Of a DNA stretch of 64,000 bases, positions 17,603 through 60,701 are shown piece after piece. This DNA comes from Escherichia coli (GTDB taxonomy: Bacteria > Pseudomonadota > Gammaproteobacteria > Enterobacterales > Enterobacteriaceae). A program made the translations under genes and the position numbers. The first letter of the stretch is position 1. Each line of letters begins with the position of its first letter. Under the pieces are notes generated by a model. It did no database searches and was not told the origin of the DNA. It worked only from the letters and a program-made list of their open reading frames with translations. The stretch is taken from the NCBI RefSeq assembly GCF_030384885.1, contig NZ_CP128613.1. The stretch is one strand, 5' to 3'.

Positions 17603-17865
17603 ATATTGTCGGATAAAATAAACGCCTCTGTCAGAAATGATGGGGGTGTTTTTATTTTGCGAGCAGCATTCCGGCATTTAAACGTGAATATAGCAGGGGA
17701 AATCAACAGTTATAGAATGGCGTCGGGTGCTTGAGGCTGTCTGGCGTTAAGCATTCGCGAGGTTCCAGATGGACAAAAGCCCCAGGCGATATATCTATCA
17801 ACCTGAGGCTCGCGTTCGAACGTAGCAATTCGGATGTTAGTCTCTTCTTTGCAGGGAGGCAAGAC

Positions 17866-18018
17866 ATGCTGACAAAATATGCCCTTGTGGCAATCATCGT
17901 ACTGTGTTGTACAGTACTGGGATTCACGCTGATGGTAGGCGACTCGTTGTGTGAGTTGAGTATCAGAGAACGTGGTATGGAGTTTAAGGCAGTTCTCGCT
18001 TACGAATCGAAGAAGTAG
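17866..18018 (+). CDS. Hok/Gef-family type I toxin, HokE-like small membrane peptide (50 aa)
   Basis: ATG 17866 after GGGAGG; peptide [50 protein letters not shown] has one TM helix and the conserved Hok C-terminal pattern; 8-bp stem-loop 18024-18045 follows the stop. Confidence 0.75.
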
Positions 18019-20936: not shown

Positions 20937-22146
<1,210 letters not shown>

Positions 22147-22242
22147 GTTACCCGTTCTTTAAAAATAAGGAAATGTTTGAATTTAGTTGGTAGATTGTTG
22201 ATGTGGAATAAAATTGTTTAAAAACAGATACGTATGCTTAGT
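22147..22242 (+). promoter_or_regulatory. AT-rich CRISPR leader between cas2 and the first repeat
   Basis: AT-rich, contains agttggtagattgt shared with the other leader. Confidence 0.65.
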
Positions 22243-22576
22243 GTGTTCCCCGCGCCAGCGGGGATAAACCGAATACCCAGCGCTATTTCGAGCGCGAGAG
22301 AGTGTGTTCCCCGCGCCAGCGGGGATAAACCGGAAATTTCGGAAATTAAATCCGCTCGCGATCGGTGTTCCCCGCGCCAGCGGGGATAAACCCCATGGCA
22401 GGAAGAGCGGATGATTTAGGGGTAAGTGTTCCCCGCGCCAGCGGGGATAAACCGAAGCCGGATCACATTTTCTTAGCGGAGCTGACGTGTTCCCCGCGCC
22501 AGCGGGGATAAACCGCTCTCGGTTCTGGGGTACTGTTACCCATAACTGAGCTCCCCCGCGTCAGCGGGGGAACTCC
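22243..22576 (+). CRISPR. Type I-E CRISPR array next to cas2: 6 repeats (GTGTTCCCCGCGCCAGCGGGGATAAACCG; third ends in C; last degenerate) and 5 spacers of 32 bp
   Basis: Repeats read at 22243, 22304, 22365, 22426, 22487 and degenerate at 22548. Confidence 0.95.
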
Positions 22577-32665: not shown

Positions 32666-33658
32666 ATGAGTCAGAATACGCTGAAAGTTCATGATTTAAA
32701 TGAAGATGCGGAATTTGATGAGAACGGAGTTGAGGTTTTTGACGAAAAGGCCTTAGTAGAAGAGGAACCCAGTGATAACGATTTGGCCGAAGAGGAACTG
32801 TTATCGCAAGGGGCCACACAGCGTGTGTTGGACGCGACTCAGCTTTACCTTGGTGAGATTGGTTATTCACCACTGTTAACGGCCGAAGAAGAAGTTTATT
32901 TTGCGCGTCGCGCACTGCGAGGAGATGTTGCCTCCCGCCGCCGGATGATCGAGAGTAACTTGCGTCTGGTGGTAAAAATTGCCCGCCGTTATGGCAATCG
33001 TGGTCTGGCTTTGCTGGATCTTATCGAAGAGGGCAACCTGGGGCTGATCCGCGCGGTAGAGAAGTTTGACCCGGAACGTGGTTTCCGCTTCTCAACATAC
33101 GCAACCTGGTGGATTCGCCAGACGATCGAACGGGCGATTATGAACCAAACCCGTACTATTCGTTTGCCGATTCACATCGTAAAGGAGCTGAACGTTTACC
33201 TGCGAACCGCACGTGAGTTGTCCCATAAGCTGGACCACGAACCAAGTGCGGAAGAGATCGCAGAGCAGCTGGATAAGCCAGTTGATGACGTCAGCCGTAT
33301 GCTTCGTCTTAACGAGCGCATTACCTCGGTAGACACCCCGCTGGGTGGAGATTCCGAAAAAGCGTTGCTGGACATCCTGGCCGATGAAAAAGAAAACGGC
33401 CCGGAAGACACCACGCAAGATGACGATATGAAACAAAGCATCGTCAAATGGCTGTTCGAACTGAACGCCAAGCAGCGTGAAGTGCTGGCACGTCGATTCG
33501 GTTTGCTGGGATACGAAGCGGCAACACTGGAAGATGTAGGTCGTGAAATTGGCCTCACCCGTGAACGTGTTCGCCAGATTCAGGTTGAAGGCCTGCGCCG
33601 TTTGCGCGAAATCCTGCAAACGCAGGGGCTGAATATCGAAGCGCTGTTCCGCGAATAA
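32666..33658 (+). CDS. rpoS: RNA polymerase sigma factor RpoS (330 aa)
   Basis: Start [14 protein letters not shown] at ATG 32666; sigma-70 family regions; codon 33 is GAG. Confidence 0.95.
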
Positions 33659-33673
33659 GTAAGCATCTGTCAG

Positions 33674-33710
33674 AAAGGCCAGTCTCTTATGAGGCTGGCC
33701 TTTTTCTTTT
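33674..33710 (+). terminator. Rho-independent terminator downstream of rpoS
   Basis: Stem aaaggccagtctc / gaggctggccttt followed by a T-run. Confidence 0.8.
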
Positions 33711-33778
33711 GTATGGGGAGTTGGTGTGTTTCGTCGCCTGGATAAGACACGTCAGCGTCCCATCCGGCAATCAACATC

Positions 33779-34186
33779 CTATTTGCTCATCATCTTGCGC
33801 ACCAGCTGCATAAACAGCTCCTGCTCTTCTCCACTCAAACGCCCCAAAAATTCCTCATCCACACTGTCGCCAATCGGTATCGCCGCAGCAAGTACCTTTT
33901 CTCCTTCGGCAGTCAGCCAGACAAAGCGTCGCCGCTTATCAGCGGTGTCATGTTCACGTCTGACTAAGCCACGATTTTCCATTCTTGCCAACATTTCTGC
34001 CAGCGTTGCTTTGGTGCTGACGGCTGCTTCCATCAGTGCCACCTGTTCGATACCAGGTTTATCAGCAATGGCGCGCATCACCGCGTACTGTGGTTTGGTC
34101 AGGTCAGGTAACTCGTGCTGCCAGCGGGCCGTATGCTGCTGAAAAAGCTGTCGTAACTGATGGAACGCTTTATTTCGTAACGCCAT
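33779..34186 (-). CDS. hosA: MarR/SlyA-family transcriptional regulator, HosA-like (135 aa)
   Basis: Winged-helix MarR-like ORF divergent from the decarboxylase operon. Confidence 0.8.
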   Translation of the reverse strand: MALRNKAFHQLRQLFQQHTARWQHELPDLTKPQYAVMRAIADKPGIEQVALMEAAVSTKATLAEMLARMENRGLVRREHDTADKRRRFVWLTAEGEKVLAAAIPIGDSVDEEFLGRLSGEEQELFMQLVRKMMSK

Positions 34187-34332
34187 GTAAACTCCGGGCT
34201 AATTCTCTGTCGCTATCATAGCGGTTTTTCAGTGACGAAGAAGATGTTGTTACTTTTCAATCCTTGCCGCTGTGGAAATGAAGGAGTATGTTAATAATAA
34301 CGTTCGTATACGAACAATTAAGAGAGTAAGCA

Positions 34333-34926
34333 ATGAAACTGATCGTCGGGATGACAGGGGCTACCGGTGCGCCTCTTGGTGTGGCATTACTGCAAGCGCT
34401 GCGGGAGATGCCGAATGTCGAGACTCATCTGGTGATGTCGAAGTGGGCGAAAACCACTATTGAACTGGAAACGCCTTACAGCGCTCGCGATGTTGCCGCC
34501 CTCGCTGACTTCAGCCATAACCCGGCAGATCAGGCTGCGACCATCTCTTCCGGCTCCTTTCGTACCGACGGCATGATCGTTATTCCATGCAGTATGAAAA
34601 CGCTCGCCGGTATCCGCGCTGGTTACGCCGATGGTCTCGTAGGGCGCGCGGCGGACGTCGTGCTCAAAGAAGGCCGCAAACTGGTGCTGGTGCCGCGTGA
34701 AATGCCGCTTAGCACCATCCATCTCGAAAATATGCTCGCACTTTCGCGCATGGGCGTGGCGATGGTGCCGCCGATGCCTGCCTTTTATAACCATCCCGAA
34801 ACGGTAGATGACATTGTCCACCACGTGGTAGCCCGCGTGCTGGATCAATTTGGCCTCGAACATCCTCACGCCAGGCGCTGGCAAGGGTTGCCGCAGGCCC
34901 GGAATTTTTCTCAGGAGAATGAATAA
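34333..34926 (+). CDS. ecdB: UbiX/Pad1-family flavin prenyltransferase (197 aa)
   Basis: N-terminus MKLIVGMTGATGA typical of UbiX. Confidence 0.85.
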   Translation: MKLIVGMTGATGAPLGVALLQALREMPNVETHLVMSKWAKTTIELETPYSARDVAALADFSHNPADQAATISSGSFRTDGMIVIPCSMKTLAGIRAGYADGLVGRAADVVLKEGRKLVLVPREMPLSTIHLENMLALSRMGVAMVPPMPAFYNHPETVDDIVHHVVARVLDQFGLEHPHARRWQGLPQARNFSQENE

Positions 34927-36353
34927 TGGCATTTGATGATTTACGCAGCTTCTTACAGGCGCTTGATGACCACGGCCAGTTACTGAAAATCAGCGAAGAG
35001 GTGAACGCGGAACCGGATCTGGCAGCCGCTGCCAACGCCACCGGGCGTATCGGCGACGGCGCGCCCGCGCTGTGGTTTGATAATATTCGCGGCTTTATCG
35101 ATGCCCGCGTTGCAATGAACACCATCGGTTCTTGGCAGAACCACGCAATTTCTCTCGGTCTGCCGCCAAACACCCCGGTTAAAAAACAGATTGATGAGTT
35201 TATCCGCCGCTGGGATAACTTCCCGATAGCCCCGGAGCGCCGTGCGAATCCTGCCTGGGCGCAGAACACCGTCGATGGCGACGAGATCAATTTGTTCAAT
35301 ATCCTGCCGCTGTTTCGTTTAAACGATGGCGATGGCGGTTTCTATCTCGACAAAGCGTGCGTGGTTTCCCGCGATCCGCTCGATCCGGATAACTTCGGCA
35401 AGCAGAACGTCGGCATCTATCGCATGGAAGTGAAGGGTAAGCGTAAGCTCGGCCTGCAACCGGTGCCGATGCACGATATCGCCCTGCATCTGCATAAAGC
35501 GGAAGAACGTGGTGAAGATTTGCCAATTGCCATCACGCTGGGTAACGATCCGATCATCACCCTGATGGGCGCCACCCCGCTGAAATATGATCAATCGGAG
35601 TACGAAATGGCGGGCGCGCTACGCGAAAGCCCGTACCCGATCGCCACCGCCCCGCTGACCGGTTTTGATGTGCCGTGGGGTTCAGAAGTGATCCTCGAAG
35701 GGGTTATCGAAAGCCGCAAACGTGAAATCGAAGGGCCGTTCGGTGAGTTTACCGGGCACTACTCCGGTGGGCGCAACATGACCGTAGTGCGCATCGATAA
35801 AGTCTCTTACCGCACCAAACCGATTTTTGAATCGCTCTATCTCGGCATGCCGTGGACCGAAATCGACTACCTGATGGGGCCTGCCACCTGCGTGCCGCTT
35901 TACCAGCAGTTGAAAGCCGAGTTCCCGGAAGTGCAGGCGGTGAACGCTATGTACACCCACGGCCTGCTGGCGATTATCTCCACCAAAAAACGCTATGGCG
36001 GCTTTGCCCGCGCAGTGGGCCTGCGTGCGATGACCACGCCGCACGGTCTGGGTTATGTGAAGATGGTGATTATGGTCGATGAAGACGTTGACCCGTTCAA
36101 CCTGCCGCAGGTGATGTGGGCGCTCTCGTCGAAAGTGAACCCGGCAGGCGATCTGGTGCAACTGCCAAATATGTCCGTGCTGGAACTCGACCCAGGCTCA
36201 AGCCCGGCGGGGATCACCGATAAGCTGATTATCGACGCCACCACGCCTGTCGCCCCGGACAACCGTGGTCACTACAGCCAGCCGGTGGTGGACTTACCGG
36301 AAACCAAAGCCTGGGCTGAAAAACTGACCGCTATGCTGGCCGCACGTAAATAA
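34926..36353 (+). CDS. ecdC: UbiD-family (prFMN-dependent) aromatic acid decarboxylase (475 aa)
   Basis: UbiD-like length and sequence; translationally coupled to the UbiX-like gene. Confidence 0.85.
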   Translation: MAFDDLRSFLQALDDHGQLLKISEEVNAEPDLAAAANATGRIGDGAPALWFDNIRGFIDARVAMNTIGSWQNHAISLGLPPNTPVKKQIDEFIRRWDNFPIAPERRANPAWAQNTVDGDEINLFNILPLFRLNDGDGGFYLDKACVVSRDPLDPDNFGKQNVGIYRMEVKGKRKLGLQPVPMHDIALHLHKAEERGEDLPIAITLGNDPIITLMGATPLKYDQSEYEMAGALRESPYPIATAPLTGFDVPWGSEVILEGVIESRKREIEGPFGEFTGHYSGGRNMTVVRIDKVSYRTKPIFESLYLGMPWTEIDYLMGPATCVPLYQQLKAEFPEVQAVNAMYTHGLLAIISTKKRYGGFARAVGLRAMTTPHGLGYVKMVIMVDEDVDPFNLPQVMWALSSKVNPAGDLVQLPNMSVLELDPGSSPAGITDKLIIDATTPVAPDNRGHYSQPVVDLPETKAWAEKLTAMLAARK

Positions 36354-36363
36354 GGAGAACAAG

Positions 36364-36600
36364 ATGATTTGTCCACGTTGTGCCGATGAACAGATTGAAG
36401 TGATGGCGAAATCGCCGGTGAAAAATGTCTGGACGGTCTACCAGTGCCAGCATTGCCTTTATACATGGCGCGATACTGAACCGCTACGTCGCACCAGCCG
36501 CGAACATTATCCCGAAGCCTTCCGTATGACGCAGAAAGATATTGATGACGCACCGATGGTGCCGAGCATTCCGCCGCTGCTGGCGGAAGGTAAGCGCTAA
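36364..36600 (+). CDS. ecdD: Small zinc-ribbon-like subunit of the decarboxylase (78 aa)
   Basis: CPRC...CQHC cysteine pairs; third gene of a three-gene operon. Confidence 0.75.
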   Translation: MICPRCADEQIEVMAKSPVKNVWTVYQCQHCLYTWRDTEPLRRTSREHYPEAFRMTQKDIDDAPMVPSIPPLLAEGKR

Positions 36601-36602
36601 AT

Positions 36603-36630
36603 AAAAGGTCCGATGCCCATCGGACCTTTT
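36603..36630. terminator. Bidirectional rho-independent terminator between ecdD and ygbN
   Basis: Perfect hairpin ggtccgatg / catcggacc flanked by an A-run upstream and T-run downstream. Confidence 0.8.
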
Positions 36631-36638
36631 TATTAAGG

Positions 36639-38003
36639 TCAAATTACCGCCCATACGCACCAGGTAATTAAGAATCCGGTAAAACCGAGAATGGTCGTTA
36701 ACACTGTCCAGGTTTTCAGACCGTCTGCTACCGACAACCCCAGATATTTGGTCACAATCCAGAACCCTGAGTCATTAATATGTGACGCGCCAAGCCCACC
36801 AAAGCAGGCTGCCAGCGTCACCAATACGCACTGAATCGGATTCAATCCCATCACAGCTTCTGAGAGTAACCCGCCGGTTGTCAGGATTGCTACGGTTGCT
36901 GACCCCTGCGATGCACGCAGCGCCAGTGAAATAATAAATGCGGCTGGTAACAGAGGCAGGTCAATCATTTGTAGCATGTTGGCAAGGGCTTTGCCGACGC
37001 CCGATTCCACCAGCACTTTGCCAAATACCCCTCCAGCACCAGTAACCAAAATCACTACCGCCGCAGTGGGAAGGGCTGAGCCCATAATGTCGCTGGTGTG
37101 TTGTAAGCTCCAGCCGCGACGTAAAGCCAATAACCAGAATGCCAGCACCAGCGCAATCATTAGAGCTACCATTGGTGAGCCGATCAGCTGTAGCGTACCA
37201 AGCAGGGGATGCGAAGGCGGCATCAGTGTTGCGGAAACCGTACCCGCCATGATAATCGCGATAGGAATAACAATTAGCGAGGTGACCAGCGCGACGCCCG
37301 GTGGATTTATTTTATCGCTTAATTTTGTCGCGCCTTCCTCACTGGCCGGAGCCAGTTGCATCTGTTCCAGTACTTCCACCGACATCGCATATTGGCGCTT
37401 ATTGATTATTTTCGCTGCAAAGTAGCCAACAATCCCTACGGGAATAGAAATCGCAATACCGATGATGGTTAGCCAGCCGATGTCTGCGTGGAGTAACCCC
37501 GCTGCGGCGACAGGGCCTGGATGCGGCGGTACCGCCACATGAACAGTTAGCATGATTCCAGCGACAGGCAGGCCAAATTTGAGTGGCGATATTTTGGCAA
37601 CCTTGGCAAAACCGTAAATGATTGGCGCAAGAATAATAAAGCCGACATCAAAGAAGACGGGAATACCGAGGAAGAACGCTGCCAGAGTCAGCGCAGCGAT
37701 AGTTCGTTTGTCACCTAACTTGCGACTGAAATAATTAGCCAGTGACTCTGCACCACCAGAGTGTTCGATCATACGCCCCAGCATAGCGCCCAGACCAATA
37801 ATAATAGTGACGGAACCAAGCACACCGCCCATCCCGGCGATCATCACTTTACCCACTTCGCCCGCCGGTATACCCGCCGCAAGTGCGACTAACAGGCTGA
37901 CGAGGAGCAGAGCAACGAATGGTTGTACCTTTGCCTTGATGACCAGCAGCAACAGCATGATTACGCCAGTTAACGCAATGCATAACAATGTAATTGTGGA
38001 CAT
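36639..38003 (-). CDS. ygbN: GntP-family permease (454 aa)
   Basis: Multi-TM ORF; synteny with ygbMLKJ. Confidence 0.88.
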   Translation of the reverse strand: MSTITLLCIALTGVIMLLLLVIKAKVQPFVALLLVSLLVALAAGIPAGEVGKVMIAGMGGVLGSVTIIIGLGAMLGRMIEHSGGAESLANYFSRKLGDKRTIAALTLAAFFLGIPVFFDVGFIILAPIIYGFAKVAKISPLKFGLPVAGIMLTVHVAVPPHPGPVAAAGLLHADIGWLTIIGIAISIPVGIVGYFAAKIINKRQYAMSVEVLEQMQLAPASEEGATKLSDKINPPGVALVTSLIVIPIAIIMAGTVSATLMPPSHPLLGTLQLIGSPMVALMIALVLAFWLLALRRGWSLQHTSDIMGSALPTAAVVILVTGAGGVFGKVLVESGVGKALANMLQMIDLPLLPAAFIISLALRASQGSATVAILTTGGLLSEAVMGLNPIQCVLVTLAACFGGLGASHINDSGFWIVTKYLGLSVADGLKTWTVLTTILGFTGFLITWCVWAVI

Positions 38004-38872: not shown

Positions 38873-39511
38873 TTAACTCCTTAATTCCGCAATTTCACCT
38901 GCGGTCAGATAACGGATCGGGCGGTCACCGAGAATAAAAATCAGCTTTGCCGTTTCCTCCAGCTCTTCCATATTGTTGGCGGCTTCTTGCAGGCTTTCAC
39001 CGCAAACCACTGGGCCATGATTTGCCAGTAAAAAAGCCTGATTGTCTGCTGCCAGTTCCGCCAGATCCTGTGCGATGCGTTTATCGCCCGGTCGGTAATA
39101 GGGCACCAGCGGGACATTACCCATCCGCATCACCACGTATGGTGTGAACGGCCGAATAACGTTATTGCTGTCCAGCCCTTCCAGGCAGGAAAGCGCCGTC
39201 GACCACGTACTGTGCAAATGCACTACCGCTTTACAGCGCGGATTGTTGCGATACAGCGCCAGATGAAAGAGCACCTCTTTCGAGGGTTTGTCACCACTTA
39301 ACCATTCGCCATCCACGGCGACTTTGGAAAGCCGCTGCGGATCGAGATTGCCCAGGCATGAACCTGTCGGTGTCGCCAGTAAATTCCCATCAGGTAAAAG
39401 CAGCGACAGATTGCCAGCCGAACCGGTTGCATAGCCGCGCTGAAAGAATGAACTGGCAATCCGCGTCATCTCCTCTCGCAAAGACTGCTCTACTTTTGCG
39501 AAATCGCTCAT
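38873..39511 (-). CDS. ygbL: Class II aldolase/adducin-family protein, putative 3-oxo-tetronate 4-phosphate decarboxylase (212 aa)
   Basis: Class II aldolase family; synteny. Confidence 0.85.
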
Positions 39512-40770
39512 GATAAAAACTCTCTTTGGGCTCGTGAAAAAAAGGCTTCATCACCGAAGTTGCCAGATTTAAGGGCGAGTGAGACAGGCTTATCCAGTGC
39601 GTTTACCCACGGCACGCCGGGGGAAATGGTTGGGCCAATATGAAACCCTTTTATTCCCAGGCTCTGTGTGACTACGCCGGAGGTCTCACCGCCTGCGACA
39701 ATAAAGCGTGTCACGCCTTCCGCTGCTAACTGCGCCGCTAGTTGAGAAAACAGTGTTTCTACTGCCTGACTGGCTTTTTGTGCACCGTATTGCTGTTGAA
39801 TTGCTGCCAATGCGTCAGTGCTGGCGGTGGCAAAAACCAGTGGAGCAAGTACACTTTCCTGGCCCAGAACCCACTCTGCCAGCTCGTGTGCATAAGCGGC
39901 CAGAGTTTCAATTGAGAGGCAGCGTGCAACATCAACTTCACGGGCTGGTGCAATTTGACGGTAATGTGCCACCTGGCGGTTGGTCATTTGAGAGCATGAA
40001 CCGGAGAGCACTACGCCGCGCCCTGCGAGCGGACGCCCTGCTTCGCGAGCCTGGTTACCATTTTCTTGCGCCCACTGCCGGGCCAGGCCAATTGCCAGAC
40101 CAGAACCGCCCGTTACCAGTGGGGCATCGCGCAAGGCTTCCCCCTGAATTTCCAGATGGTGTTCGGTCAGCGCATCAAGCACCGCGTAGCGATAGCCCTC
40201 TTGCTGTAAGCGAGCCAGCTCCTGACGAACGGCTTTCACACCTTGTTCGAAAACATGTGCTGAAACGACGCCGCAGCGCCCTGTGGATTGCGCTTCAACC
40301 AGACGGGGAAGATAGCTGTCGGTCATGGGATTTACCGGGTGATGGCGCATCCCGGATTCGGCCAGCAGTTGATTCATTACGAACAAATACCCCTGATAAA
40401 CCGTACGTCCGTTGACCGGCAGGGCCGGAGAGAAGACCGTAAACGGCGTGTCGAGAGCATCCATTAATGCATCGGTAACCGGGCCGATATTACCTTTCGC
40501 CGTACTGTCGAAAGTAGAGCAGTATTTGAAATAGATCTGTTTGCAACCTTGCTGTTGCAACCAGCTCAGAGCCGCCAGCGATTGCTGTGTGGCTTCAACC
40601 ACCGGACAGGAGCGCGTTTTCAGGCTGATCACCAGTGCGTCGATTGCTTCCGGCATTTTACCTGTTGGAACACCGTTAATTTGTACCGTTGGTAGACCGT
40701 TTTCCACCAGAAAACTGGCGATATCCGTCGCGCCGGTAAAATCATCGGCGATAACGCCAATCTTGATCAT
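39508..40770 (-). CDS. ygbK: DUF1537-family four-carbon acid-sugar kinase (420 aa)
   Basis: N-terminus MIKIGVIADDFTGATD typical of the family. Confidence 0.85.
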   Translation of the reverse strand: MIKIGVIADDFTGATDIASFLVENGLPTVQINGVPTGKMPEAIDALVISLKTRSCPVVEATQQSLAALSWLQQQGCKQIYFKYCSTFDSTAKGNIGPVTDALMDALDTPFTVFSPALPVNGRTVYQGYLFVMNQLLAESGMRHHPVNPMTDSYLPRLVEAQSTGRCGVVSAHVFEQGVKAVRQELARLQQEGYRYAVLDALTEHHLEIQGEALRDAPLVTGGSGLAIGLARQWAQENGNQAREAGRPLAGRGVVLSGSCSQMTNRQVAHYRQIAPAREVDVARCLSIETLAAYAHELAEWVLGQESVLAPLVFATASTDALAAIQQQYGAQKASQAVETLFSQLAAQLAAEGVTRFIVAGGETSGVVTQSLGIKGFHIGPTISPGVPWVNALDKPVSLALKSGNFGDEAFFSRAQREFLS

Positions 40771-41870: not shown

Positions 41871-42638
41871 TTGATACCCGTAGAGCGTCGCCAAATCATC
41901 CTTGAGATGGTAGCTGAAAAAGGCATTGTCAGTATTGCTGAACTAACGGACAGAATGAATGTGTCACATATGACCATTCGTCGGGATTTACAAAAACTGG
42001 AGCAGCAGGGAGCCGTTGTGCTGGTGTCCGGAGGCGTCCAGTCTCCGGGACGCGTGGCGCATGAACCTTCTCATCAGGTAAAAACTGCGCTGGCAATGAC
42101 GCAAAAAGCGGCTATTGGCAAGCTGGCGGCAAGTCTTGTTCAGCCGGGAAGTTGTATCTATCTGGATGCGGGAACGACCACGCTAGCGATAGCACAGCAT
42201 CTGATTCACATGGAGTCACTGACTGTGGTCACAAACGATTTCGTTATTGCGGACTACTTGCTCGACAACAGTAATTGCACAATTATTCACACTGGCGGTG
42301 CAGTATGTCGGGAAAACCGTTCCTGTGTCGGGGAAGCCGCTGCGACCATGCTGCGCAGCCTGATGATTGATCAGGCTTTTATTTCTGCATCGTCATGGAG
42401 TGTGCGGGGGATTTCTACGCCAGCGGAAGATAAAGTCACGGTGAAACGGGCGATTGCCAGTGCCAGCCGCCAGCGAGTTTTGGTCTGTGATGCGACGAAA
42501 TATGGTCAGGTGGCGACATGGCTGGCGTTACCATTAAGCGAGTTTGATCAGATTATTACAGACGACGGTTTGCCGGAGAGTGCCAGTCGCGCGCTGGCGA
42601 AGCAGGATCTCTCTTTGCTGGTAGCGAAAAATGAATAA
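41871..42638 (+). CDS. ygbI: DeoR-family transcriptional regulator (255 aa)
   Basis: Probable TTG start at 41871 with aaggaaggag SD; DeoR HTH N-terminus. Confidence 0.8.
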   Translation: MIPVERRQIILEMVAEKGIVSIAELTDRMNVSHMTIRRDLQKLEQQGAVVLVSGGVQSPGRVAHEPSHQVKTALAMTQKAAIGKLAASLVQPGSCIYLDAGTTTLAIAQHLIHMESLTVVTNDFVIADYLLDNSNCTIIHTGGAVCRENRSCVGEAAATMLRSLMIDQAFISASSWSVRGISTPAEDKVTVKRAIASASRQRVLVCDATKYGQVATWLALPLSEFDQIITDDGLPESASRALAKQDLSLLVAKNE

Positions 42639-42688
42639 TGGCCTGCAATAACACCGGGTTACTCATGCTTCACAGAAGAAGCATGAGA

Positions 42689-43345
42689 CTACTTTATTTT
42701 ATAAAATGACAGGCGCCCACTTTCCGGCGAACCGGTATCAATATAAACCTGGTTGGCGAATGTCTGGATGTTATCAAACATCATATGTCCGAAGATAAAG
42801 CAGTCGGCGCCGTTTATTTCCTGTAACTCGCCTTTGAGCGATTTCAGTACGCGATCAACAGGCCAGAGCAATTCTCTCTCCGCTATTTCTTTGCCAAAGA
42901 GATATTCATTCCCCGGATAATCTGCATGCGCGATGACATATTTTATTATGTCGTTAGTGATTTAAACAATATGCGGAAGATTATGAAAACGTAGCAACAG
43001 GTCTATTGCTTCTTTTTGTTCCGTATCACTTAACTCAAAGAACCAGTCGCCACCACTGGCAAGCCACATATTGCCATCGCCGGTCGCGAACGCATCCAAT
43101 GCCATCGCTTCATGGTTGCCTTTGACCGATGTAAACCAGGGCTGGTTTAGCAGGCGCAGCACGTTAAGACTCTCCGGCCCACGATCAATATTATCGCCGA
43201 CAGAAATAAGTAAGTCGGTTTCAGGGCAAAAAGAGAGTTGATGTAAGCGGGATTGTAATAATTGATAGTCACCATGAATATCACCAACGGCCCATATATG
43301 GCGATAGTGATGGGCATTAATTTTTTGATAGCGTGTAGATGGCAT
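42689..43345 (-). pseudogene. pphB: Serine/threonine protein phosphatase 2 (lambda-phosphatase-like PPP family) interrupted by an in-frame TAA at 42962-42964
   Basis: Track ORFs 42962..43345 and 42689..42871 are in the same frame; N-part carries GDIHG, GDNIDRG and GNHE motifs, C-part carries the remaining histidine motifs; total 219 codons. Confidence 0.8.
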
Positions 43346-43450
43346 GGTTTTACCCTGTAAAATAAGATTTCCTATTATACAGGGTATTTTTATTTGATTC
43401 GTCAGTTGTCGTTAATATTCCCGATAGCAAAAAACTATCGGGAATTGTTA

Positions 43451-46012
43451 TTACACCAGACTCTTCAAGCGATAAATCCATTCCAGCGCCTGACGCGGGG
43501 TAAGTGAATCCGGGTCAAGATTTTCCAGCGCTTCGACCGCTGGCGACGTTTCTTCTGGCACTGAAAGCAAAGACATTTGCGTACCATCCACTTGCGTAGC
43601 GGCGGCGTTCGGCGAAATGCTTTCCAGCTCACGCAGTTTTTGCCGTGCGCGCTTAATAACCTCTTTTGGTACGCCCGCCAGAGCTGCAACCGCCAGACCG
43701 TAGCTTTTGCTCGCCGCGCCATCCTGCACGCTGTGCATAAAGGCAATGGTGTCGCCGTGCTCCAGCGCATCAAGATGCACGTTGGCGACGCCTTCCATTT
43801 TCTCCGGCAGTTGAGTCAGTTCAAAGTAGTGGGTAGCAAACAACGTCAACGCTTTAATCTTATTCGCCAGATTTTCAGCGCACGCCCATGCCAGCGACAG
43901 ACCATCGTAAGTGGACGTTCCGCGCCCAATCTCATCCATCAACACCAGGCTGTACTCCGTGGCGTTATGCAGAATATTGGCGGTTTCGGTCATCTCCACC
44001 ATAAAGGTTGAACGCCCGGATGCCAGATCGTCAGCCGCGCCCACACGGGTAAAGATACGGTCAATCGGGCCAATCTCGACTTTTTGCGCCGGTACGTAGC
44101 TGCCGATATAGGCCATCAGCGCAATCAGTGCGGTCTGGCGCATATAGGTACTTTTACCGCCCATGTTCGGACCGGTGATGATCAACATGCGACGCTGCGG
44201 CGACAGGTTCAGCGGGTTAGCGATAAACGGCTCATTCAGTACCTGTTCAACCACCGGATGGCGACCTTCGGTAATGCGAATGCCCGGTTTATCAATGAAG
44301 GTCGGGCAGGTGTAGTTCAGGGTATAGGCCCGTTCCGCCAGGTTTACCAGTACGTCGAGTTCTGCCAGTGCGCTCGCGCTCTGTTGCAACGCTTCCAGAT
44401 GCGGCAACAGCAGGTCGAACAACTCTTCATAAAGCTGTTTTTCCAGTGCCAGCGCTTTACCTTTCGAGGTGAGTACTTTGTCTTCATACTCTTTTAGCTC
44501 TGGAATAATGTAGCGTTCGGCGTTTTTCAGCGTCTGGCGACGCATATAGTTGATGGGTGCGAGATGGCTTTGTCCACGGCTAATCTGAATGTAATAACCA
44601 TGCACCGCGTTAAAGCCAACTTTCAGCGTGTCCAGGCCGGTACGTTCACGCTCGCGAACTTCCAGACGCTCCAGATAATCTGTCGCGCCGTCAGCCAGCG
44701 CTCGCCACTCATCCAGCTCTTCGTTATAGCCTGATGCGATAACACCACCGTCGCGTACCAGCACCGGCGGTGTGTCGATGATTGCTCGCTCCAGCAGATC
44801 GCGCAGCTCTGCAAACTCGCCCATTTTCTCACGCAGCGCCTGTACCGGTGCACTAGCGACATTTTCTAACTGCGCACGCAGCTCCGGCAGTTGCTGGAAA
44901 GCGTGACGCATACGGGCCAGATCGCGTGGGCGGGCAGTCCGTAAAGCCAGACGTGCCAGAATACGTTCCAGGTCGCCGACCTGACGCAGTACCGGCTGCA
45001 GCTCAGCGGTGAAATCCTGCAATGCGCCAATAGTTTGCTGGCGCTCAAGCAACACGCGGGTATCGCGCACTGGCATATGCAGCCAGCGTTTCAGCATTCG
45101 ACTCCCCATCGGCGTTACAGTGCAATCGAGCACGGAAGCCAGCGTGTTTTCCGCACCGCCCGCCAGGTTCTGGGTAATTTCCAGGTTACGACGCGTCGCG
45201 GCATCCATAATGATGCTGTCCTGCTCACGTTCCATAGTGATAGAACGAATATGCGGCAGAGTCGTACGTTGAGTATCTTTCGCATACTGCAACAGACAAC
45301 CGGCGGCACAAAGTCCGCGCGGCGCGTTCTCGACGCCAAAACCGACCAGATCGCGAGTGCCAAATTGTAGATTCAACTGCTGGCGCGCGGTGTCGATTTC
45401 AAACTCCCACAGCGGGCGACGGCGCAAGCCGCGACGACCTTCAATCAGCGACATTTCAGCAAAATCTTCTGCATACAGCAGTTCCGCCGGATTAGTGCGT
45501 TGCAGTTCTGCCGCCATCGTTTCGCGGTCAGCCGGTTCACTCAGGCGAAAACGACCGGAACTGATATCCAGCGTCGCGTAGCCGAAACCTTTACTGTCCT
45601 GCCAGATAGCCGCCAGCAGGTTGTCCTGACGCTCCTGCAACAGCGCTTCATCGCTGATGGTGCCCGGCGTAACGATACGCACAACTTTGCGCTCAACCGG
45701 ACCTTTGCTGGTCGCCGGATCGCCAATTTGTTCGCAGATGGCAACGGACTCGCCCTGATTCACCAGTTTGGCGAGGTAGTTTTCCACCGCATGGTATGGA
45801 ATCCCCGCCATCGGGATCGGCTCTCCCGCTGAAGCGCCGCGTTTGGTCAGTGAAATATCCAGCAGTTGTGACGCACGTTTTGCGTCGTCATAAAACAGTT
45901 CGTAAAAGTCACCCATCCGGTAGAACAGCAGGATCTCGGGATGCTGGGCTTTCAGCTTGAGATACTGCTGCATCATTGGCGTGTGGGCGTCGAAATTTTC
46001 TATTGCACTCAT
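43451..46012 (-). CDS. mutS: DNA mismatch repair protein MutS (853 aa)
   Basis: Walker [10 protein letters not shown]; full-length. Confidence 0.97.
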
Positions 46013-46298
46013 GGAGTTATGTCCGGTTCCCTGATTTTAAATGGGGTGTGATGATTTTTATTTTCGTTGTAATCACATAAGGCGCACATGATACCGGAGT
46101 TAATCATTTCAGGGGAAGAAGCGAACGGCGAGTTCTTGATGTCGGTTCCGCGAAAAATGCTGCTTTGCAGCTTTTGCGTGATGCTTATGAAGCAAGTACG
46201 CAAAATTGTATCAGTTGGCGAACCCTTCTTCTTCAGAGACATAGTCCCCTTTAAAATTAAGTTGTAATATAAATGCACCTTAAGAGTATGGAGGCAGC

Positions 46299-46652
46299 AT
46301 GTCCGGCAAGCGTACCTCTCGTGAAAAACTGACGATTAAAAAAATGATCGATCTTTATCAAGCGAAATGCCCGCAGGCGTCAGCAGAGCCGGAGCATTAC
46401 GAAGCGCTGTTTGCCTACGCGCAAAAACGGCTGGATAAATGTGTGTTCGGCGAAGACAAACCCGCCTGTAAGCAGTGCCCGGTGCACTGTTACCAGTCTG
46501 CAAAGCGTGAAGAGATGAAACAGATTATGCGTTGGGCCGGGCCGCGCATGCTGTGGCGTCATCCGATCCTAACCGTACGCCATCTCATTGATGACAAGCG
46601 TCCGGTGCCGGAGTTGCCAGAAAAATATCGCCCGAAAAAACCTCGTGAATAG
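46299..46652 (+). CDS. ygbA: Nitrous-oxide-stimulated-promoter family Cys-rich protein (117 aa)
   Basis: Conserved position divergent from mutS; CxxC motifs. Confidence 0.8.
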   Translation: MSGKRTSREKLTIKKMIDLYQAKCPQASAEPEHYEALFAYAQKRLDKCVFGEDKPACKQCPVHCYQSAKREEMKQIMRWAGPRMLWRHPILTVRHLIDDKRPVPELPEKYRPKKPRE

Positions 46653-46690
46653 TATACCGGACAGGCAGATCTGTCCGGCACCTCATGCAG

Positions 46691-48769
46691 TTAAACCAAT
46701 GCCGATTTATCAATCCCCAGTCGTTTCATCCGTGATAGCAGTGTGGTGCGTTTTAGTCCCAGACGTTGCGCCGCGCCTTTCGGCCCGGCAACCACGCCGT
46801 TAGTCTCTTTTAATACACGCACAATTAGCTGATATTCATCTTCGCCCTCCTGAGCGACGACCGTTGCAGTCGGCGGCGTTTTAGGTTCCGGTAAAGCAAT
46901 ATCAGGCAATGACAGCTGCAGCACGTTGCCACGTGTCAGCAATACCGCGCGCTCAATGACGTTTTCCAGCTCGCGTACGTTACCTGGCCACTCCATATTG
47001 CTCAACGCGCGCAACGTTTCGGCAGGAATGCTGTCGATATTACGCCCCAGACGGCGGGCAATTTTAAAAGTAAAGGCTTTCGCCAGCAGCGGAATATCTT
47101 CCGGACGCTCGCGTAGTGGCGGCAGGTGGATCGGGAATACGTTCAGACGGTAATAGAGATCGCTACGGAACTCGCGGTCGGCAACCATTTTTTTCAGATC
47201 GCGGTTAGTCGCGGCAATTAAACGCACGTCCGTCTGTATAATTTTATTACTGCCGAGACGTTCAAACTCCTGTTCCTGTAATACACGCAGCAACTTCGGT
47301 TGTAACTCCAGCGGCATATCACCCACTTCATCGAGGAACAGGGAGCTTTTATCCGCCAGTTCAAAACGACCGATACGCTGGGCGCTGGCTCCGGTAAACG
47401 CACCACGCTCATGACCAAACAGATCGCTTTCTAACAATCCGGCAGGCATCGCCGCGCAGTTCATTTTTACCATGCGGCGATTATTACGCCCACTGAGATT
47501 ATGGATCGCGCGGGCAATCAGCTCTTTACCGGTGCCAGTTTCACCGAGGATCAGAACTGTACTGTCACTTTGTGCCACCATTTCAACTTGTTTAAGCACG
47601 CTGTACATGGCTTCACTGCGACCAATAATCTCTCCAAATTCACTATCAACATTGTTGAGCTGCTCGGTCAGGGCGAGATTTTCATCAACCAGTCGTTCTT
47701 TCAGACGATGAATTTCCTGATAGGCAAGGGCGTTATCGACAGCGATTGCCACACGTTCGGCAATCTGGCGCAGTAAATTCAGATTGGTCGTGGTAAACAC
47801 TTTCTCTTCGCATTGCGCCAGTTTCAGCACGCCCAGCATGGTGTCGCCAGACATCAGCGGTAACAGGCACAAGGTTTGAATCTGGTTGCCCCAGGTGTCG
47901 AACAACATGCGTTCGTAGGGGGCTAAATTATCTCGCTCGTGGAGATTAATCAGCAGCATCTCTTTGCTTTTAAACACGCGTTCGGTGAGGGTTCCAGCTT
48001 CATCGACTTCGCTCTGTTCGTGAGCGGGATGCTGTTTATCAAGATAGTGAGTGGAGTAGATGTTGAGTTTGTTTTTACGGTGGCTGCGTAAGACGATGCT
48101 TATATCGTCAATGTCGAAATAGTAATGGATTTCTTTGGCGACTTCGCTGACCAGTTCGTCCATATCCAGGCGAGAAAGCACCGCGTTGGTGATGGCAACC
48201 AGGATGCGGAAGTTATCGCGTTCCCGGCATAACAACTCATAGTCGACATTATTGACGACGCGGCTCTGGATTTGTTCGGTGACGACAGAAATGATCTGCG
48301 TAAAAGTTTGCAGGCGATTGAACTCTTTTTCACTCCACGGGCGATCGTCATAACGAATAAATTCACAGCCACCAAAAATATGCCCTTCCGCCGCCAGTGG
48401 CATCAGGCAATAGTGACCAAATTTGGGGTATAGCCCACCAGCGGCCAGCTGCGGCCAGGTTTCACAAAATTCTTCGTAACTGCAATGCAGTGTATCAGGG
48501 CGCGACAAAATGCTGCGCACCGGACCGTGTGCCAGAACAGTTTCGTCTTCATAATTTATGGGGGTGTCTTTTTCACGCGACGCGTAATAAGACGCACGTT
48601 GAGTCTGCGCTTGCCACAACACAATAGCTGCATTGTCGGCGAGCGCAGAACGCTTTACCAATTGCGAAAGAGCCTCACACAGCGAGGCCAGATCGGGCTG
48701 CTGCAATAGTGTCCGAGTGATGTCGAACAACCCTTGTTGTCCGAGATCACTCATCGGTGTATATGACAT
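46691..48769 (-). CDS. fhlA: Formate hydrogenlyase transcriptional activator, sigma54-dependent (692 aa)
   Basis: GETGTGKE Walker A, GAFTGA motif, C-terminal HTH; start at MSYTPMSDL. Confidence 0.95.
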   Translation of the reverse strand: MSYTPMSDLGQQGLFDITRTLLQQPDLASLCEALSQLVKRSALADNAAIVLWQAQTQRASYYASREKDTPINYEDETVLAHGPVRSILSRPDTLHCSYEEFCETWPQLAAGGLYPKFGHYCLMPLAAEGHIFGGCEFIRYDDRPWSEKEFNRLQTFTQIISVVTEQIQSRVVNNVDYELLCRERDNFRILVAITNAVLSRLDMDELVSEVAKEIHYYFDIDDISIVLRSHRKNKLNIYSTHYLDKQHPAHEQSEVDEAGTLTERVFKSKEMLLINLHERDNLAPYERMLFDTWGNQIQTLCLLPLMSGDTMLGVLKLAQCEEKVFTTTNLNLLRQIAERVAIAVDNALAYQEIHRLKERLVDENLALTEQLNNVDSEFGEIIGRSEAMYSVLKQVEMVAQSDSTVLILGETGTGKELIARAIHNLSGRNNRRMVKMNCAAMPAGLLESDLFGHERGAFTGASAQRIGRFELADKSSLFLDEVGDMPLELQPKLLRVLQEQEFERLGSNKIIQTDVRLIAATNRDLKKMVADREFRSDLYYRLNVFPIHLPPLRERPEDIPLLAKAFTFKIARRLGRNIDSIPAETLRALSNMEWPGNVRELENVIERAVLLTRGNVLQLSLPDIALPEPKTPPTATVVAQEGEDEYQLIVRVLKETNGVVAGPKGAAQRLGLKRTTLLSRMKRLGIDKSALV

Positions 48770-60071: not shown

Positions 60072-60534
60072 CGTTTTACTCTGTGTTGGCAATAGCATGA
60101 TGGGCGATGATGGCGCAGGTCCGCTGCTGGCGGAAAAGTGCGCCGCCGCGCCGAAAGGTAACTGGGTGGTGATTGACGGCGGTAGCGCACCGGAAAACGA
60201 CATTGTCGCCATCCGCGAACTGCGCCCGACGCGACTGCTGATTGTCGACGCCACGGATATGGGGCTAAACCCCGGCGAGATCCGCATCATCGACCCGGAT
60301 GACATCGCTGAGATGTTTATGATGACTACCCATAACATGCCGCTGAACTACCTTATCGACCAGTTGAAAGAAGATATTGGTGAAGTGATTTTCCTCGGTA
60401 TCCAGCCGGATATCGTCGGTTTTTACTACCCGATGACCCAGCCGATTAAAGATGCGGTAGAAACCGTTTATCAACGACTTGAAGGCTGGGAAGGGAATGG
60501 TGGATTTGCGCAGTTAGCGGTGGAAGAAGAGTAG
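60064..60534 (+). CDS. hycI: Hydrogenase 3 maturation endopeptidase HycI (156 aa)
   Basis: Synteny and sequence. Confidence 0.9.
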   Translation: MTDVLLCVGNSMMGDDGAGPLLAEKCAAAPKGNWVVIDGGSAPENDIVAIRELRPTRLLIVDATDMGLNPGEIRIIDPDDIAEMFMMTTHNMPLNYLIDQLKEDIGEVIFLGIQPDIVGFYYPMTQPIKDAVETVYQRLEGWEGNGGFAQLAVEEE

Positions 60535-60701
60535 TTCGTAGACAAACATATTCACGTTTTTGAATCTGGACGTGCTATTGTGACGTTTAGACGGGTGTTT
60601 ACATATTGTGAATACTCGTGTGATCAACTACTATAGAAAAATAAAACCGAAGGAACGGGTAGTCCAGGCTTAGTCATTCAGGCGCTGATAAGGAAGTTAA
60701 A

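What the first reader, a model, noticed from the sequence alone, without database searches (positions are those of the whole stretch)
33779..36600. MarR-type regulator plus UbiX/UbiD-type decarboxylase module next to rpoS
Between the rpoS terminator and ygbN lie a divergent MarR/SlyA-like regulator and a three-gene operon (UbiX-like, UbiD-like, small Zn-ribbon subunit) with translational coupling. This is the architecture of prFMN-dependent phenolic or hydroxybenzoate acid decarboxylases. As I recall, the mutS-rpoS interval is a polymorphic region in E. coli and this module is absent from K-12, so it marks the strain as non-K-12. The module sits beside the ygbI-N acid-sugar genes rather than replacing them.
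Basis: partly seen in the sequence, partly recalled or inferred. Interest (0 to 1): 0.4.

Follow-up and report, generated by a model that had tools for sequence, protein, structure and literature searches.

The report
Known hydroxybenzoate decarboxylase operon beside rpoS
This is the already well-studied hosA-ecdBCD cassette: a repressor that senses 4-hydroxybenzoate, plus a phenolic-acid decarboxylase that depends on a prenylated flavin cofactor; about 44% of complete E. coli genomes carry it next to rpoS and K-12 lacks it, so the finding is correct but ordinary.

Summary
Window 33705-36600 is a 2.9-kb segment between the rpoS terminator and the ygbN-side terminator. K-12 has only 9 bp at this position.

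**Genes**
- A MarR-family regulator on the minus strand, 97% identical to crystallised HosA.
- A three-gene operon on the plus strand:
  - a UbiX-family flavin prenyltransferase, matching PDB 1SBZ (the O157:H7 protein) at E 1.6e-129;
  - a UbiD-family VdcC-type decarboxylase;
  - a 78-aa, four-cysteine zinc-ribbon subunit of the VdcD type.

All three operon proteins score above NCBIfam's curated cut-offs for [quoted passage not shown].

**Regulation.** A perfect 14-bp palindrome, GTTCGTATACGAAC (34302-34315), lies between an inferred -10 element and the ecdB ribosome-binding site. It corresponds to the published HosA binding site, apart from one extra T in the printed oligos. It is conserved upstream of homologous operons in 37 loci from other species.

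**Distribution.** 2379 of 5426 complete E. coli genomes carry the module. The arrangement seen here, with ygbI-N retained, is the published "pattern IV" (EPEC type).

**Verdict.** Regulator, operator, ligand (4-hydroxybenzoate), enzyme family and locus polymorphism are all published, so this is already known and of low interest. The only mildly unusual point is that this strain carries rare, deeply diverged but strongly constrained alleles of both the module and mutS.

The parts
33672..33705 (+). rpoS intrinsic terminator; left boundary of the 2.9-kb segment. K-12 homology ends just after GGCCTTTT.
   Evidence: Terminator scan. RNA fold -25.1 kcal/mol, z = -5.9. Junction alignment with K-12, O157 and MSB1_1A.
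33705..36600 (.). The polymorphic 2.9-kb hosA-ecdBCD segment. K-12 has only CTGTGCACA at this position.
   Evidence: junction alignments; present in 2379 of 5426 complete E. coli genomes.
33779..34186 (-). hosA: MarR-family winged-helix repressor, 135 aa.
   Evidence: Pfam MarR 1.1e-12. PDB 8AGA 'Transcriptional regulator HosA' E 2.1e-82, 130 of 134 residues identical.
34211..34223 (.). Conserved CGCTATCATAGCG element about 25 nt upstream of the hosA start codon. On the hosA strand it contains TATGAT, so it is an inferred -10 element of the hosA promoter.
   Evidence: Invariant in three E. coli alleles. TATCATAGCGG / TATGATAGCCG is conserved at the same place in other Enterobacteriaceae. The promoter role is inference only.
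34264..34269 (+). Inferred -35 element (TTGCCG) of the ecdBCD promoter.
   Evidence: TTGCC/TTGTC is conserved with a fixed 17-nt spacer to TAnnTT across Enterobacteriaceae. It falls below the threshold of the consensus scan, which found 0 promoters.
34287..34292 (+). Inferred -10 element (TATGTT) of the ecdBCD promoter.
   Evidence: Conserved position and 17-nt spacing in the cross-genus comparison. Inference; no transcription start site data here.
34302..34315 (.). HosA operator: perfect 14-bp palindrome GTTCGTATACGAAC, between the inferred -10 and the ecdB Shine-Dalgarno sequence.
   Evidence: The only exact match in 64 kb. Invariant in three E. coli alleles that otherwise differ in the spacer. 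GTTCGTRYACGAAC-type sites occur upstream of the first ecd gene in 37 loci from other species. Corresponds to the site in the published HosA binding-site oligos, which print GTTTCGTATACGAAC with one extra T.
34333..34926 (+). ecdB (also called kpdB, vdcB, 'pad1'): UbiX-family flavin prenyltransferase that makes prFMN.
   Evidence: NCBIfam VdcB 312 bits (cut-off 290) and the UbiX subfamily models. PDB 1SBZ E 1.6e-129 over residues 1-197.
34926..36353 (+). ecdC (also called kpdC, vdcC, yclC): UbiD-family prFMN-dependent decarboxylase. N161/R166 (QNVGIYR), H183, E225, and E269/E274 (EGPFGEFTGHY) are present.
   Evidence: NCBIfam VdcC 788 bits (cut-off 650). Pfam UbiD_N, UbiD and UbiD_C. PDB 7AE4 chain A E 6.5e-160. 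Motif positions.
36364..36600 (+). ecdD (also called kpdD, vdcD, yclD): 78-aa zinc-ribbon subunit with Cys3, Cys6, Cys28 and Cys31.
   Evidence: NCBIfam VdcD 120 bits (cut-off 30). PDB 7AE4 chain a, ShdD, E 1.8e-10. The cysteine positions are the same as the Zn ligands C3/C6/C28/C31 of ShVdcD (PMC8379154).
36603..36631 (.). Hairpin with A-run and T-run flanks, shared with K-12. It could act as a bidirectional terminator for ecdBCD (+) and ygbN (-). It marks the right boundary of the segment.
   Evidence: RNA fold -17.7 kcal/mol, z = -4.9. Identical in K-12 and MSB1_1A, different in O157.

Best explanation
The segment is the hosA-ecdBCD cassette, also named slyA/kpdR-kpdBCD, pad1-yclC-yclD or the 'HAD operon'. 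It is a ligand-controlled phenolic-acid decarboxylase system.

Proposed working model:
1. The HosA dimer binds the 14-bp palindrome that lies just downstream of the ecdB promoter's -10 element and blocks transcription of ecdBCD. The literature also reports that HosA represses its own gene.
2. When 4-hydroxybenzoate enters the cell it binds HosA, HosA leaves the DNA, and the operon is expressed.
3. EcdB (UbiX family) prenylates reduced FMN to make prFMN.
4. EcdC (UbiD family) uses prFMN, with its Glu-Arg-Glu catalytic triad, to decarboxylate 4-hydroxybenzoate to phenol and related acids such as vanillate. The reaction is reversible.
5. EcdD, a zinc ribbon, binds EcdC and holds the catalytic loops in place as an obligatory allosteric activator.

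Shown here: gene content, family membership above curated cut-offs, conserved catalytic and zinc-ligand residues, the operator and its conservation, strong purifying selection, and the distribution of the module.

Inferred from published work on orthologues: the ligand, the repression mechanism, the substrates and the role of the D subunit.

The position next to rpoS is shared by many Enterobacteriaceae genera, so K-12 most likely lost the cassette rather than this strain gaining it.
For: Family membership:
- VdcB, VdcC and VdcD are all above their NCBIfam cut-offs; Pfam domains agree.
- RefSeq annotates the identical locus in E. coli 2013C-4282 as 'non-oxidative hydroxyarylic acid decarboxylases subunits B, C, D' plus a MarR regulator.

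Solved relatives:
- HosA 8AGA, 97% identical.
- O157:H7 Pad1/UbiX 1SBZ.
- The ShVdcC/ShdD complex 7AE4.
- The EcdD cysteines at 3, 6, 28 and 31 match the ShVdcD zinc ligands.
- EcdC keeps QNVGIYR and EGPFGEFTGHY.

Operator:
- Unique perfect palindrome in the window, invariant among E. coli alleles.
- Conserved at about -30 from the first ecd gene in 37 other loci.
- Corresponds to the published HosA binding site, which is printed with one extra T.

Literature:
- HosA represses the HAD operon and itself.
- 4-HBA releases HosA from the DNA.
- The site lies downstream of the transcription start (bioRxiv 10.1101/2024.04.24.590444 summarising Roy & Ranjan 2016).
- Kd for 4-HBA is 4.7 uM (PMC6261655).
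- VdcD is strictly required, binds zinc and stabilises the ERE loops; substrates include 4-HBA and vanillate (PMC8379154).

Selection: dN/dS is 0.013-0.019 for ecdB, ecdC and ecdD despite dS up to 0.29 against the O157 allele.

Synteny: the cassette is adjacent to rpoS in Citrobacter, Enterobacter, Kluyvera, Leclercia, Lelliottia, Pseudocitrobacter, Phytobacter, Cedecea, Kosakonia and Klebsiella indica.
Against: - No experiment was done on this allele. It differs from the studied ones by 4 residues in HosA (against E2348/69) and 3 in EcdC.
- The consensus promoter scan found no sigma-70 site in the region, so the promoter is inferred only from cross-genus conservation.
- The published oligos print the site as GTTTCGTATACGAAC, with one extra T. 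I could not tell whether that is a strain difference or a transcription error in the supplement.
- Direct enzymology for the E. coli enzyme itself (Lupa et al. 2005) could not be read here. Substrate assignment rests on orthologues and on the HosA ligand.
Confidence: 0.93

Rival explanations
1. The UbiX/UbiD pair is a second copy of the ubiquinone-biosynthesis enzymes (4-hydroxy-3-polyprenylbenzoate decarboxylase and its cofactor synthase), not a free phenolic-acid decarboxylase.
For: Same protein families. E. coli UbiD structures are the third-best PDB match (2IDB, E 3.9e-47). EcdB could plausibly supply prFMN to UbiD, which is inference.
Against: The UbiD equivalog NF008175 scores 174 bits against a cut-off of 788, whereas VdcC scores 788 against 650. 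A VdcD subunit is present; it matches only the VdcD model. From general knowledge, the ubiquinone-pathway UbiD has no such partner. The adjacent regulator responds to free 4-hydroxybenzoate.
Confidence: 0.02
2. EcdB and EcdD serve mainly as helpers for a protocatechuate decarboxylase of the AroY type, and EcdC is an AroY-like enzyme.
For: AroY-type structures are detectable relatives (5O3M at 1.3e-27, 5NY5 at 6.6e-25). A paper on raising protocatechuate decarboxylase activity for muconate production was listed (PMC5779730) but not read here; that it used EcdB/EcdD-type helpers is my recollection.
Against: EcdC is far closer to VdcC (6.5e-160) than to AroY. No aroY gene is in the segment. The VdcC model is passed above its cut-off.
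Confidence: 0.03
3. The cassette is a decaying remnant in this lineage, present but no longer functional.
For: It is dispensable: 56% of complete E. coli genomes lack it. This allele is rare.
Against: All four ORFs are full length and the same length as in O157 and MSB1_1A. dN/dS is 0.013-0.019 for ecdBCD over 110 synonymous changes. The operator, Shine-Dalgarno sequence and gene overlap are intact.
Confidence: 0.02

Closest known systems
HosA (E. coli UMN026 and EPEC E2348/69), a MarR-family repressor of the hydroxyarylic acid decarboxylase operon; PDB 8AGA, 8PQ4 and others
   Same: 130 of 134 residues identical. Same divergent position upstream of the B-C-D operon. Same palindromic site apart from one extra T in the printed oligos.
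   Different: Four substitutions relative to the crystallised protein. Nothing suggests a functional change.
EcdBCD / KpdBCD / VdcBCD / BsdBCD non-oxidative hydroxyarylic acid decarboxylases (Lupa et al. 2005; the Sedimentibacter VdcCD structure 7AE4, PMC8379154)
   Same: Three-gene order B-C-D. All three NCBIfam models are passed. The ERE motif and the four zinc cysteines are conserved.
   Different: EcdC is roughly 60% identical to ShVdcC by eye from the alignment, so substrate range may differ in detail. The regulator is MarR-type here; from memory it is a LysR-type regulator (BsdA) in Bacillus subtilis.
E. coli O157:H7 'Pad1' (PDB 1SBZ)
   Same: EcdB matches over residues 1-197 at E 1.6e-129. 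There is one amino-acid difference from the O157 MB41-1 protein.
   Different: The 1SBZ deposit names it 'probable aromatic acid decarboxylase'. Later entries in the same family are named flavin prenyltransferase.
mutS-rpoS / o454-nlpD polymorphism, 'pattern IV' (EPEC E2348/69 type), Ewers et al. 2014, PMC4209514
   Same: rpoS - slyA(hosA) - kpdB - kpdC - kpdD - o454(ygbN), with ygbI-N retained.
   Different: The nucleotide allele is unusual: at least 99% identical in only 3 of 5426 genomes, and 94-96% in most carriers.
UbiD/UbiX of ubiquinone biosynthesis
   Same: Same superfamilies and the same prFMN chemistry.
   Different: Fails the UbiD equivalog cut-off (174 against 788). Has the extra D subunit and a dedicated 4-HBA-responsive regulator.

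Membership tests
Non-oxidative hydroxyarylic acid decarboxylase (VdcBCD/EcdBCD) | B subunit belongs to the UbiX flavin prenyltransferase family | tested here: met
   NF041206 VdcB 312.2 bits against cut-off 290; TIGR00421 246 against 108.9; PDB 1SBZ 1.6e-129.
Non-oxidative hydroxyarylic acid decarboxylase (VdcBCD/EcdBCD) | C subunit is a three-domain UbiD-family protein of the VdcC type | tested here: met
   NF041204 VdcC 788.4 bits against cut-off 650; Pfam UbiD_N, UbiD and UbiD_C; 7AE4 chain A 6.5e-160.
Non-oxidative hydroxyarylic acid decarboxylase (VdcBCD/EcdBCD) | Catalytic Glu-Arg-Glu triad and metal/prFMN ligands are conserved in the C subunit | tested here: met
   N161 and R166 in QNVGIYR, H183, E225, and E269/E274 in EGPFGEFTGHY, aligned with identical residues in ShVdcC and with E/D in E. 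coli UbiD. Mapping to Fdc1 numbering is from memory.
Non-oxidative hydroxyarylic acid decarboxylase (VdcBCD/EcdBCD) | Small D subunit with two CxxC knuckles (zinc ribbon) | tested here: met
   NF041205 VdcD 120.4 bits against cut-off 30. Cys 3, 6, 28 and 31 are at the same positions as the ShVdcD zinc ligands.
Non-oxidative hydroxyarylic acid decarboxylase (VdcBCD/EcdBCD) | Genes contiguous in the order B-C-D on one strand | tested here: met
   34333-34926, 34926-36353 and 36364-36600, all on the + strand, with a 1-nt overlap and a 10-nt gap. The same order is seen in the other-species loci that carry all three genes.
Non-oxidative hydroxyarylic acid decarboxylase (VdcBCD/EcdBCD) | Decarboxylates 4-hydroxybenzoate or vanillate; D subunit required | not testable with these tools
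   Shown for the Sedimentibacter and Bacillus enzymes (PMC8379154). Activity of the K. pneumoniae enzyme is attributed to Lupa 2005; the E. coli O157 case is my recollection. Lupa 2005 itself was not readable here.
HosA subfamily of MarR regulators | MarR winged-helix domain and near-identity to characterised HosA | tested here: met
   Pfam MarR; 8AGA 2.1e-82, 97% identity.
HosA subfamily of MarR regulators | Palindromic operator between the promoter and the first gene of the divergent decarboxylase operon | tested here: met
   GTTCGTATACGAAC at 34302-34315; conserved in 37 other loci; corresponds to the published binding-site oligos, which print one extra T.
HosA subfamily of MarR regulators | DNA binding relieved by 4-hydroxybenzoate | not testable with these tools
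   Published for UMN026 HosA.
   NF002926 27.3 bits against cut-off 120. SlyA structures match only at E about 1e-6.
UbiD proper (4-hydroxy-3-polyprenylbenzoate decarboxylase) | Passes the UbiD equivalog model | tested here: not met
   NF008175 174.1 bits against cut-off 788.
Phenylphosphate carboxylase alpha/beta subunits | Passes TIGR02723 or TIGR02724 | tested here: not met
   122.5 against 564.6 and 149.9 against 468.95.

The most novel reading that the evidence does not exclude
Two readings go slightly beyond what I could find described.

(a) The whole switch travels as one unit across very distant bacteria. The switch is the HosA-type repressor, its GTTCGTRYACGAAC operator and vdc(B)CD. 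The operator is essentially unchanged upstream of the operon in Enterobacterales, Vibrio, Commensalibacter and several Actinobacteria (Nocardia, Pseudonocardia, Sciscionella, Saccharopolyspora). In the Actinobacteria the repressor is only 45-54% identical and EcdC is about 71-80% identical. This implies transfer of a complete 4-hydroxybenzoate-responsive cassette between phyla.

(b) This strain's cassette and its pphB-mutS-fhlA segment are deep-branching alleles (dS 0.25-0.29) flanking a K-12-like ygb block. That would fit recombinational import from an Escherichia lineage not sampled here.
Probability: 0.45. Interest if true: 0.25.

Novelty: already known. Interest (0 to 1): 0.1.

Why it matters
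It matters little beyond annotation. The cassette types the strain's mutS-rpoS region as pattern IV. It predicts that the strain can convert 4-hydroxybenzoate to phenol and vanillate to guaiacol, which is relevant to gut phenol production and to tolerance of phenolic acids or paraben breakdown products. HosA and its operator are already used as a 4-hydroxybenzoate biosensor part. The cross-phylum conservation of the operator and the deep alleles are small additions to a well-documented story of gene loss and recombination around mutS and rpoS.

Tried and rejected
- The consensus sigma-70 scan of 33600-36700 found no promoter. The promoter was instead inferred from conserved -35/-10 spacing across genera.
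- Rfam at gathering thresholds found no RNA family in or near the module. The only hit in the window is sok at 17725-17881.
- A second near-match to the operator at 60534-60547 has 2 mismatches and is compatible with chance. The shuffle mean is 0.15, and 2 of 100 shuffles reach two matches.
- I looked for a donor of the divergent allele among species representatives, but none is closer than other E. coli. E. albertii is 92.5% identical to this allele and 93.0% to the O157 allele over the same 949 nt.
- L108, labelled a Collinsella MAG contig, carries an E. coli-type ecdCD fragment and is most likely contamination.
- The primary papers of Herbelin 2000 and LeClerc 1999 are not held in the library. 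Their content is cited only through PMC4209514 and my own recollection.
- I considered and rejected SlyA orthology, UbiD proper, AroY and phenylphosphate carboxylase (see the membership tests).
Full report

Yes. The ORF list shows the four genes at exactly the stated coordinates:
- a 135-aa protein on the minus strand (33779-34186);
- on the plus strand, proteins of 197 aa (34333-34926), 475 aa (34926-36353) and 78 aa (36364-36600).

The stop codon of the first plus-strand gene overlaps the start of the second (TAATG). The third gene starts 10 nt after the second, behind AAGGAG.

Pfam finds MarR in the regulator, Flavoprotein in the 197-aa protein and UbiD_N/UbiD/UbiD_C in the 475-aa protein. 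NCBIfam places the three plus-strand proteins above the curated cut-offs of VdcB (312 against 290), VdcC (788 against 650) and VdcD (120 against 30). These are the [quoted passage not shown].

**2. Where the window comes from, and the boundaries**

The region is 100% identical to E. coli 2013C-4282 (NZ_CP027579.1). Over 27.1 kb the window differs from that record at 7 positions.

RefSeq annotates the gene order as rpoS, MarR regulator, subunits B, C, D, then ygbN, ygbM, ygbL, otnK, ltnD, ygbI, pphB, mutS.

In K-12 MG1655, ygbN and rpoS are neighbours. Junction alignments show K-12 has 9 bp (CTGTGCACA) between the rpoS terminator and a hairpin next to ygbN. The window has 33705-36600, about 2.9 kb, at that spot. 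Both flanking hairpins fold far better than shuffled controls.

O157:H7 has the same module, but its right end joins pphB and ygbI-N are absent.

**3. Distribution**

Of 5426 complete E. coli genomes, 2379 carry at least 80% of the segment, always on the chromosome. In the sampled non-carriers of the K-12 type, only the short rpoS and ygbN flanks match.

Ewers et al. 2014 (PMC4209514) typed 510 strains at this locus. Their "pattern IV" is an o454(ygbN)-nlpD amplicon carrying kpdD, kpdC, kpdB and slyA, as in EPEC E2348/69. O157 is pattern I, K-12 is pattern II and phylogroup B2 is pattern III. The window is pattern IV.

The same paper summarises the earlier literature on this polymorphic, recombination-prone interval.

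**4. What the proteins are**

- **Regulator.** It is 130/134 identical to crystallised HosA of EPEC (8AGA and six further entries). It is not a SlyA orthologue: 27 bits against a cut-off of 120.
- **197-aa protein.** It matches the O157:H7 protein of PDB 1SBZ over its full length (E 1.6e-129) and belongs with the UbiX/Pad1 flavin prenyltransferases.
- **475-aa protein.** Its best solved relative is the VdcC subunit of the Sedimentibacter hydroxybenzoicus VdcCD complex (7AE4, E 6.5e-160). UbiD, AroY and Fdc1 are much more distant. It keeps QNVGIYR (N161, R166), H183, E225 and EGPFGEFTGHY (E269, E274). By alignment, and from what I recall of Fdc1 and UbiD, these are the metal/prFMN ligands and the Glu-Arg-Glu catalytic triad.
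- **78-aa protein.** It matches ShdD/VdcD. Its cysteines are at 3, 6, 28 and 31, the same positions as the four zinc ligands of ShVdcD (PMC8379154).

**5. The operator and promoter**

The 146-bp intergenic region contains a perfect 14-bp palindrome, GTTCGTATACGAAC, at 34302-34315. It is the only exact copy in the 64-kb window. It is invariant in three E. coli alleles whose neighbouring spacer differs at many positions.

The supplement of PMC6261655 gives the oligos used for HosA binding. They carry this site, printed as GTTTCGTATACGAAC, with flanks close to those of the E. coli alleles, and the text calls it a 14-bp palindromic binding site.

A DNA-pattern scan of one genome per species returned 120 loci with a VdcC-type gene. 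In 37 of them a HosA homologue lies divergently upstream. Every one of these has a related palindrome, mostly of the form GTTCGTRYACGAAC, in the intergenic region. In most it sits about 30 nt before the first ecd gene, while the surrounding sequence is not conserved.

Across Enterobacteriaceae, a TTGCC/TTGTC hexamer and a TAnnTT hexamer sit at a fixed 17-nt spacing just upstream of the palindrome. In the window these are 34264-34269 and 34287-34292. The operator would then lie a few bases downstream of the transcription start. This agrees with the published statement that the HosA site is downstream of the start and acts as a steric block. The generic promoter scan did not reach its threshold here, so the promoter is an inference.

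**6. Mechanism**

Published work on the orthologue states that HosA represses the decarboxylase operon and itself. It also states that 4-hydroxybenzoate abolishes DNA binding and induces the operon, with a Kd of 4.7 uM for the ligand.

For VdcCD, the C subunit is inactive without D. D is a zinc ribbon that stabilises the loops carrying the catalytic triad. The enzyme decarboxylates 4-hydroxybenzoate and vanillate, and the cofactor is oxygen-sensitive.

Hydroxyarylic acid decarboxylase is also cited as the gut bacterial route from 4-hydroxybenzoate to phenol (PMC6424909).

The steps I showed directly are the parts list, the conserved residues, and the operator and its conservation. The ligand, substrates and subunit roles are taken from orthologues.

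**7. Selection and history**

Against the O157 allele, ecdC has 80 synonymous and 4 non-synonymous differences (dS 0.29, dN/dS 0.013). ecdB and ecdD behave alike, and hosA is less constrained at 0.18. The genes are therefore functional and maintained.

The cassette lies next to rpoS in at least ten other genera of Enterobacteriaceae. Presence at this site is therefore ancestral, and K-12-type strains lost it. This is also the reading implied by the title of Herbelin et al. 2000, which I could not open. The bioRxiv claim that hosA was acquired by EPEC from Shigella is not needed to explain the data.

**8. The only unusual aspect**

This allele is rare. Only three complete genomes are at least 99% identical and two are at 97.9%. 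The other carriers listed range from 96.2% down to about 94%.

A sliding comparison shows a mosaic:
- the module (33.7-36.6 kb) is about 93-97% identical to other E. coli;
- ygbN-ygbI (36.6-42.5 kb) is about 99%;
- pphB-mutS-ygbA-fhlA (42.5-48 kb) is 90-96%.

The mutS allele is at least 99% identical in one genome only. No closer donor was found among the loci retrieved. This fits the documented horizontal exchange of mutS alleles cited in PMC4209514 and does not change the verdict.

**9. Verdict**

The system is already known in its regulator, operator, ligand, enzyme family, structures and population distribution. Interest is low.

Noticed in passing
window 42500-48000 (pphB, mutS 43451-46012 minus strand, ygbA, start of fhlA): This block is only 90-96% identical to K-12, O157 and MSB1_1A, while the adjacent ygbN-ygbI block is about 99%. 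The mutS allele is at least 99% identical in 1 of 5426 complete genomes and 90-95% in 4654. dS against O157 is 0.25 with dN/dS 0.004. It looks like a recombinational mosaic around mutS, a documented phenomenon.
   Followed up: partly
window 33705-36600: The hosA-ecdBCD allele is itself deep-branching. dS for ecdC and ecdD is 0.29, against 0.105 for the neighbouring rpoS. E. albertii is about as far from this allele (92.5%) as from the common E. coli allele (93.0%). No donor was identified.
   Followed up: partly
L019, L046, L078, L100, L102 (Actinobacteria); L054, L059 (Vibrio); L026 (Commensalibacter): The HosA-type operator GTTCGTRYACGAAC is kept upstream of vdcB or vdcC even where the repressor is only 45-54% identical. 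Actinobacterial VdcC in these loci is 71-80% identical to the E. coli protein, against 62-65% for Bacillus and Paenibacillus. This suggests the whole regulated cassette moved between phyla.
   Followed up: partly
L013, L028, L029, L036, L037, L050, L064, L067, L084, L118; window about 34228-34241: Many Enterobacteriaceae have a second, imperfect site (GATCGTGTACGAAC) about 56 nt upstream of the main operator, abutting the -35 element. In E. coli the intergenic region is about 25 nt shorter and only the right half (ACGAA) remains.
   Followed up: no
L010, L026, L031, L072, L075, L103: In Superficieibacter, Commensalibacter, Erwinia, Cedecea and Rouxiella, the hosA homologue is followed directly by ecdC-ecdD with no ecdB. 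These operons presumably rely on the housekeeping UbiX for prFMN.
   Followed up: no
window 17725-17881 (+): Full-length match to the Rfam sok antitoxin RNA (RF01794, 104.5 bits against a gathering score of 59), which points to a chromosomal hok/sok-type toxin-antitoxin locus.
   Followed up: no
window about 21600-22514: End of a type I-E CRISPR-Cas locus: cas1e, cas2e (about 21853-22146) and a CRISPR array (about 22243-22514), according to the RefSeq annotation of the near-identical record. This part is poorly conserved against strain MSB1_1A (83-85%).
   Followed up: no
window 39508-40770 (-): ygbK/otnK is 420 aa here and overlaps ygbL by 4 nt. The K-12 annotation has ygbK at 388 aa, followed by a 91-nt gap before ygbL, so the K-12 copy appears shortened at its C-terminus.
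   Followed up: no
L108 (contig JAIJJM010000891.1, labelled Collinsella sp. MAG): A 1158-nt contig encoding EcdC (100% aa identity over 270 residues) and EcdD (97%), and 96.7% nt identical to the O157 allele. It is almost certainly E. coli contamination of the MAG bin.
   Followed up: no
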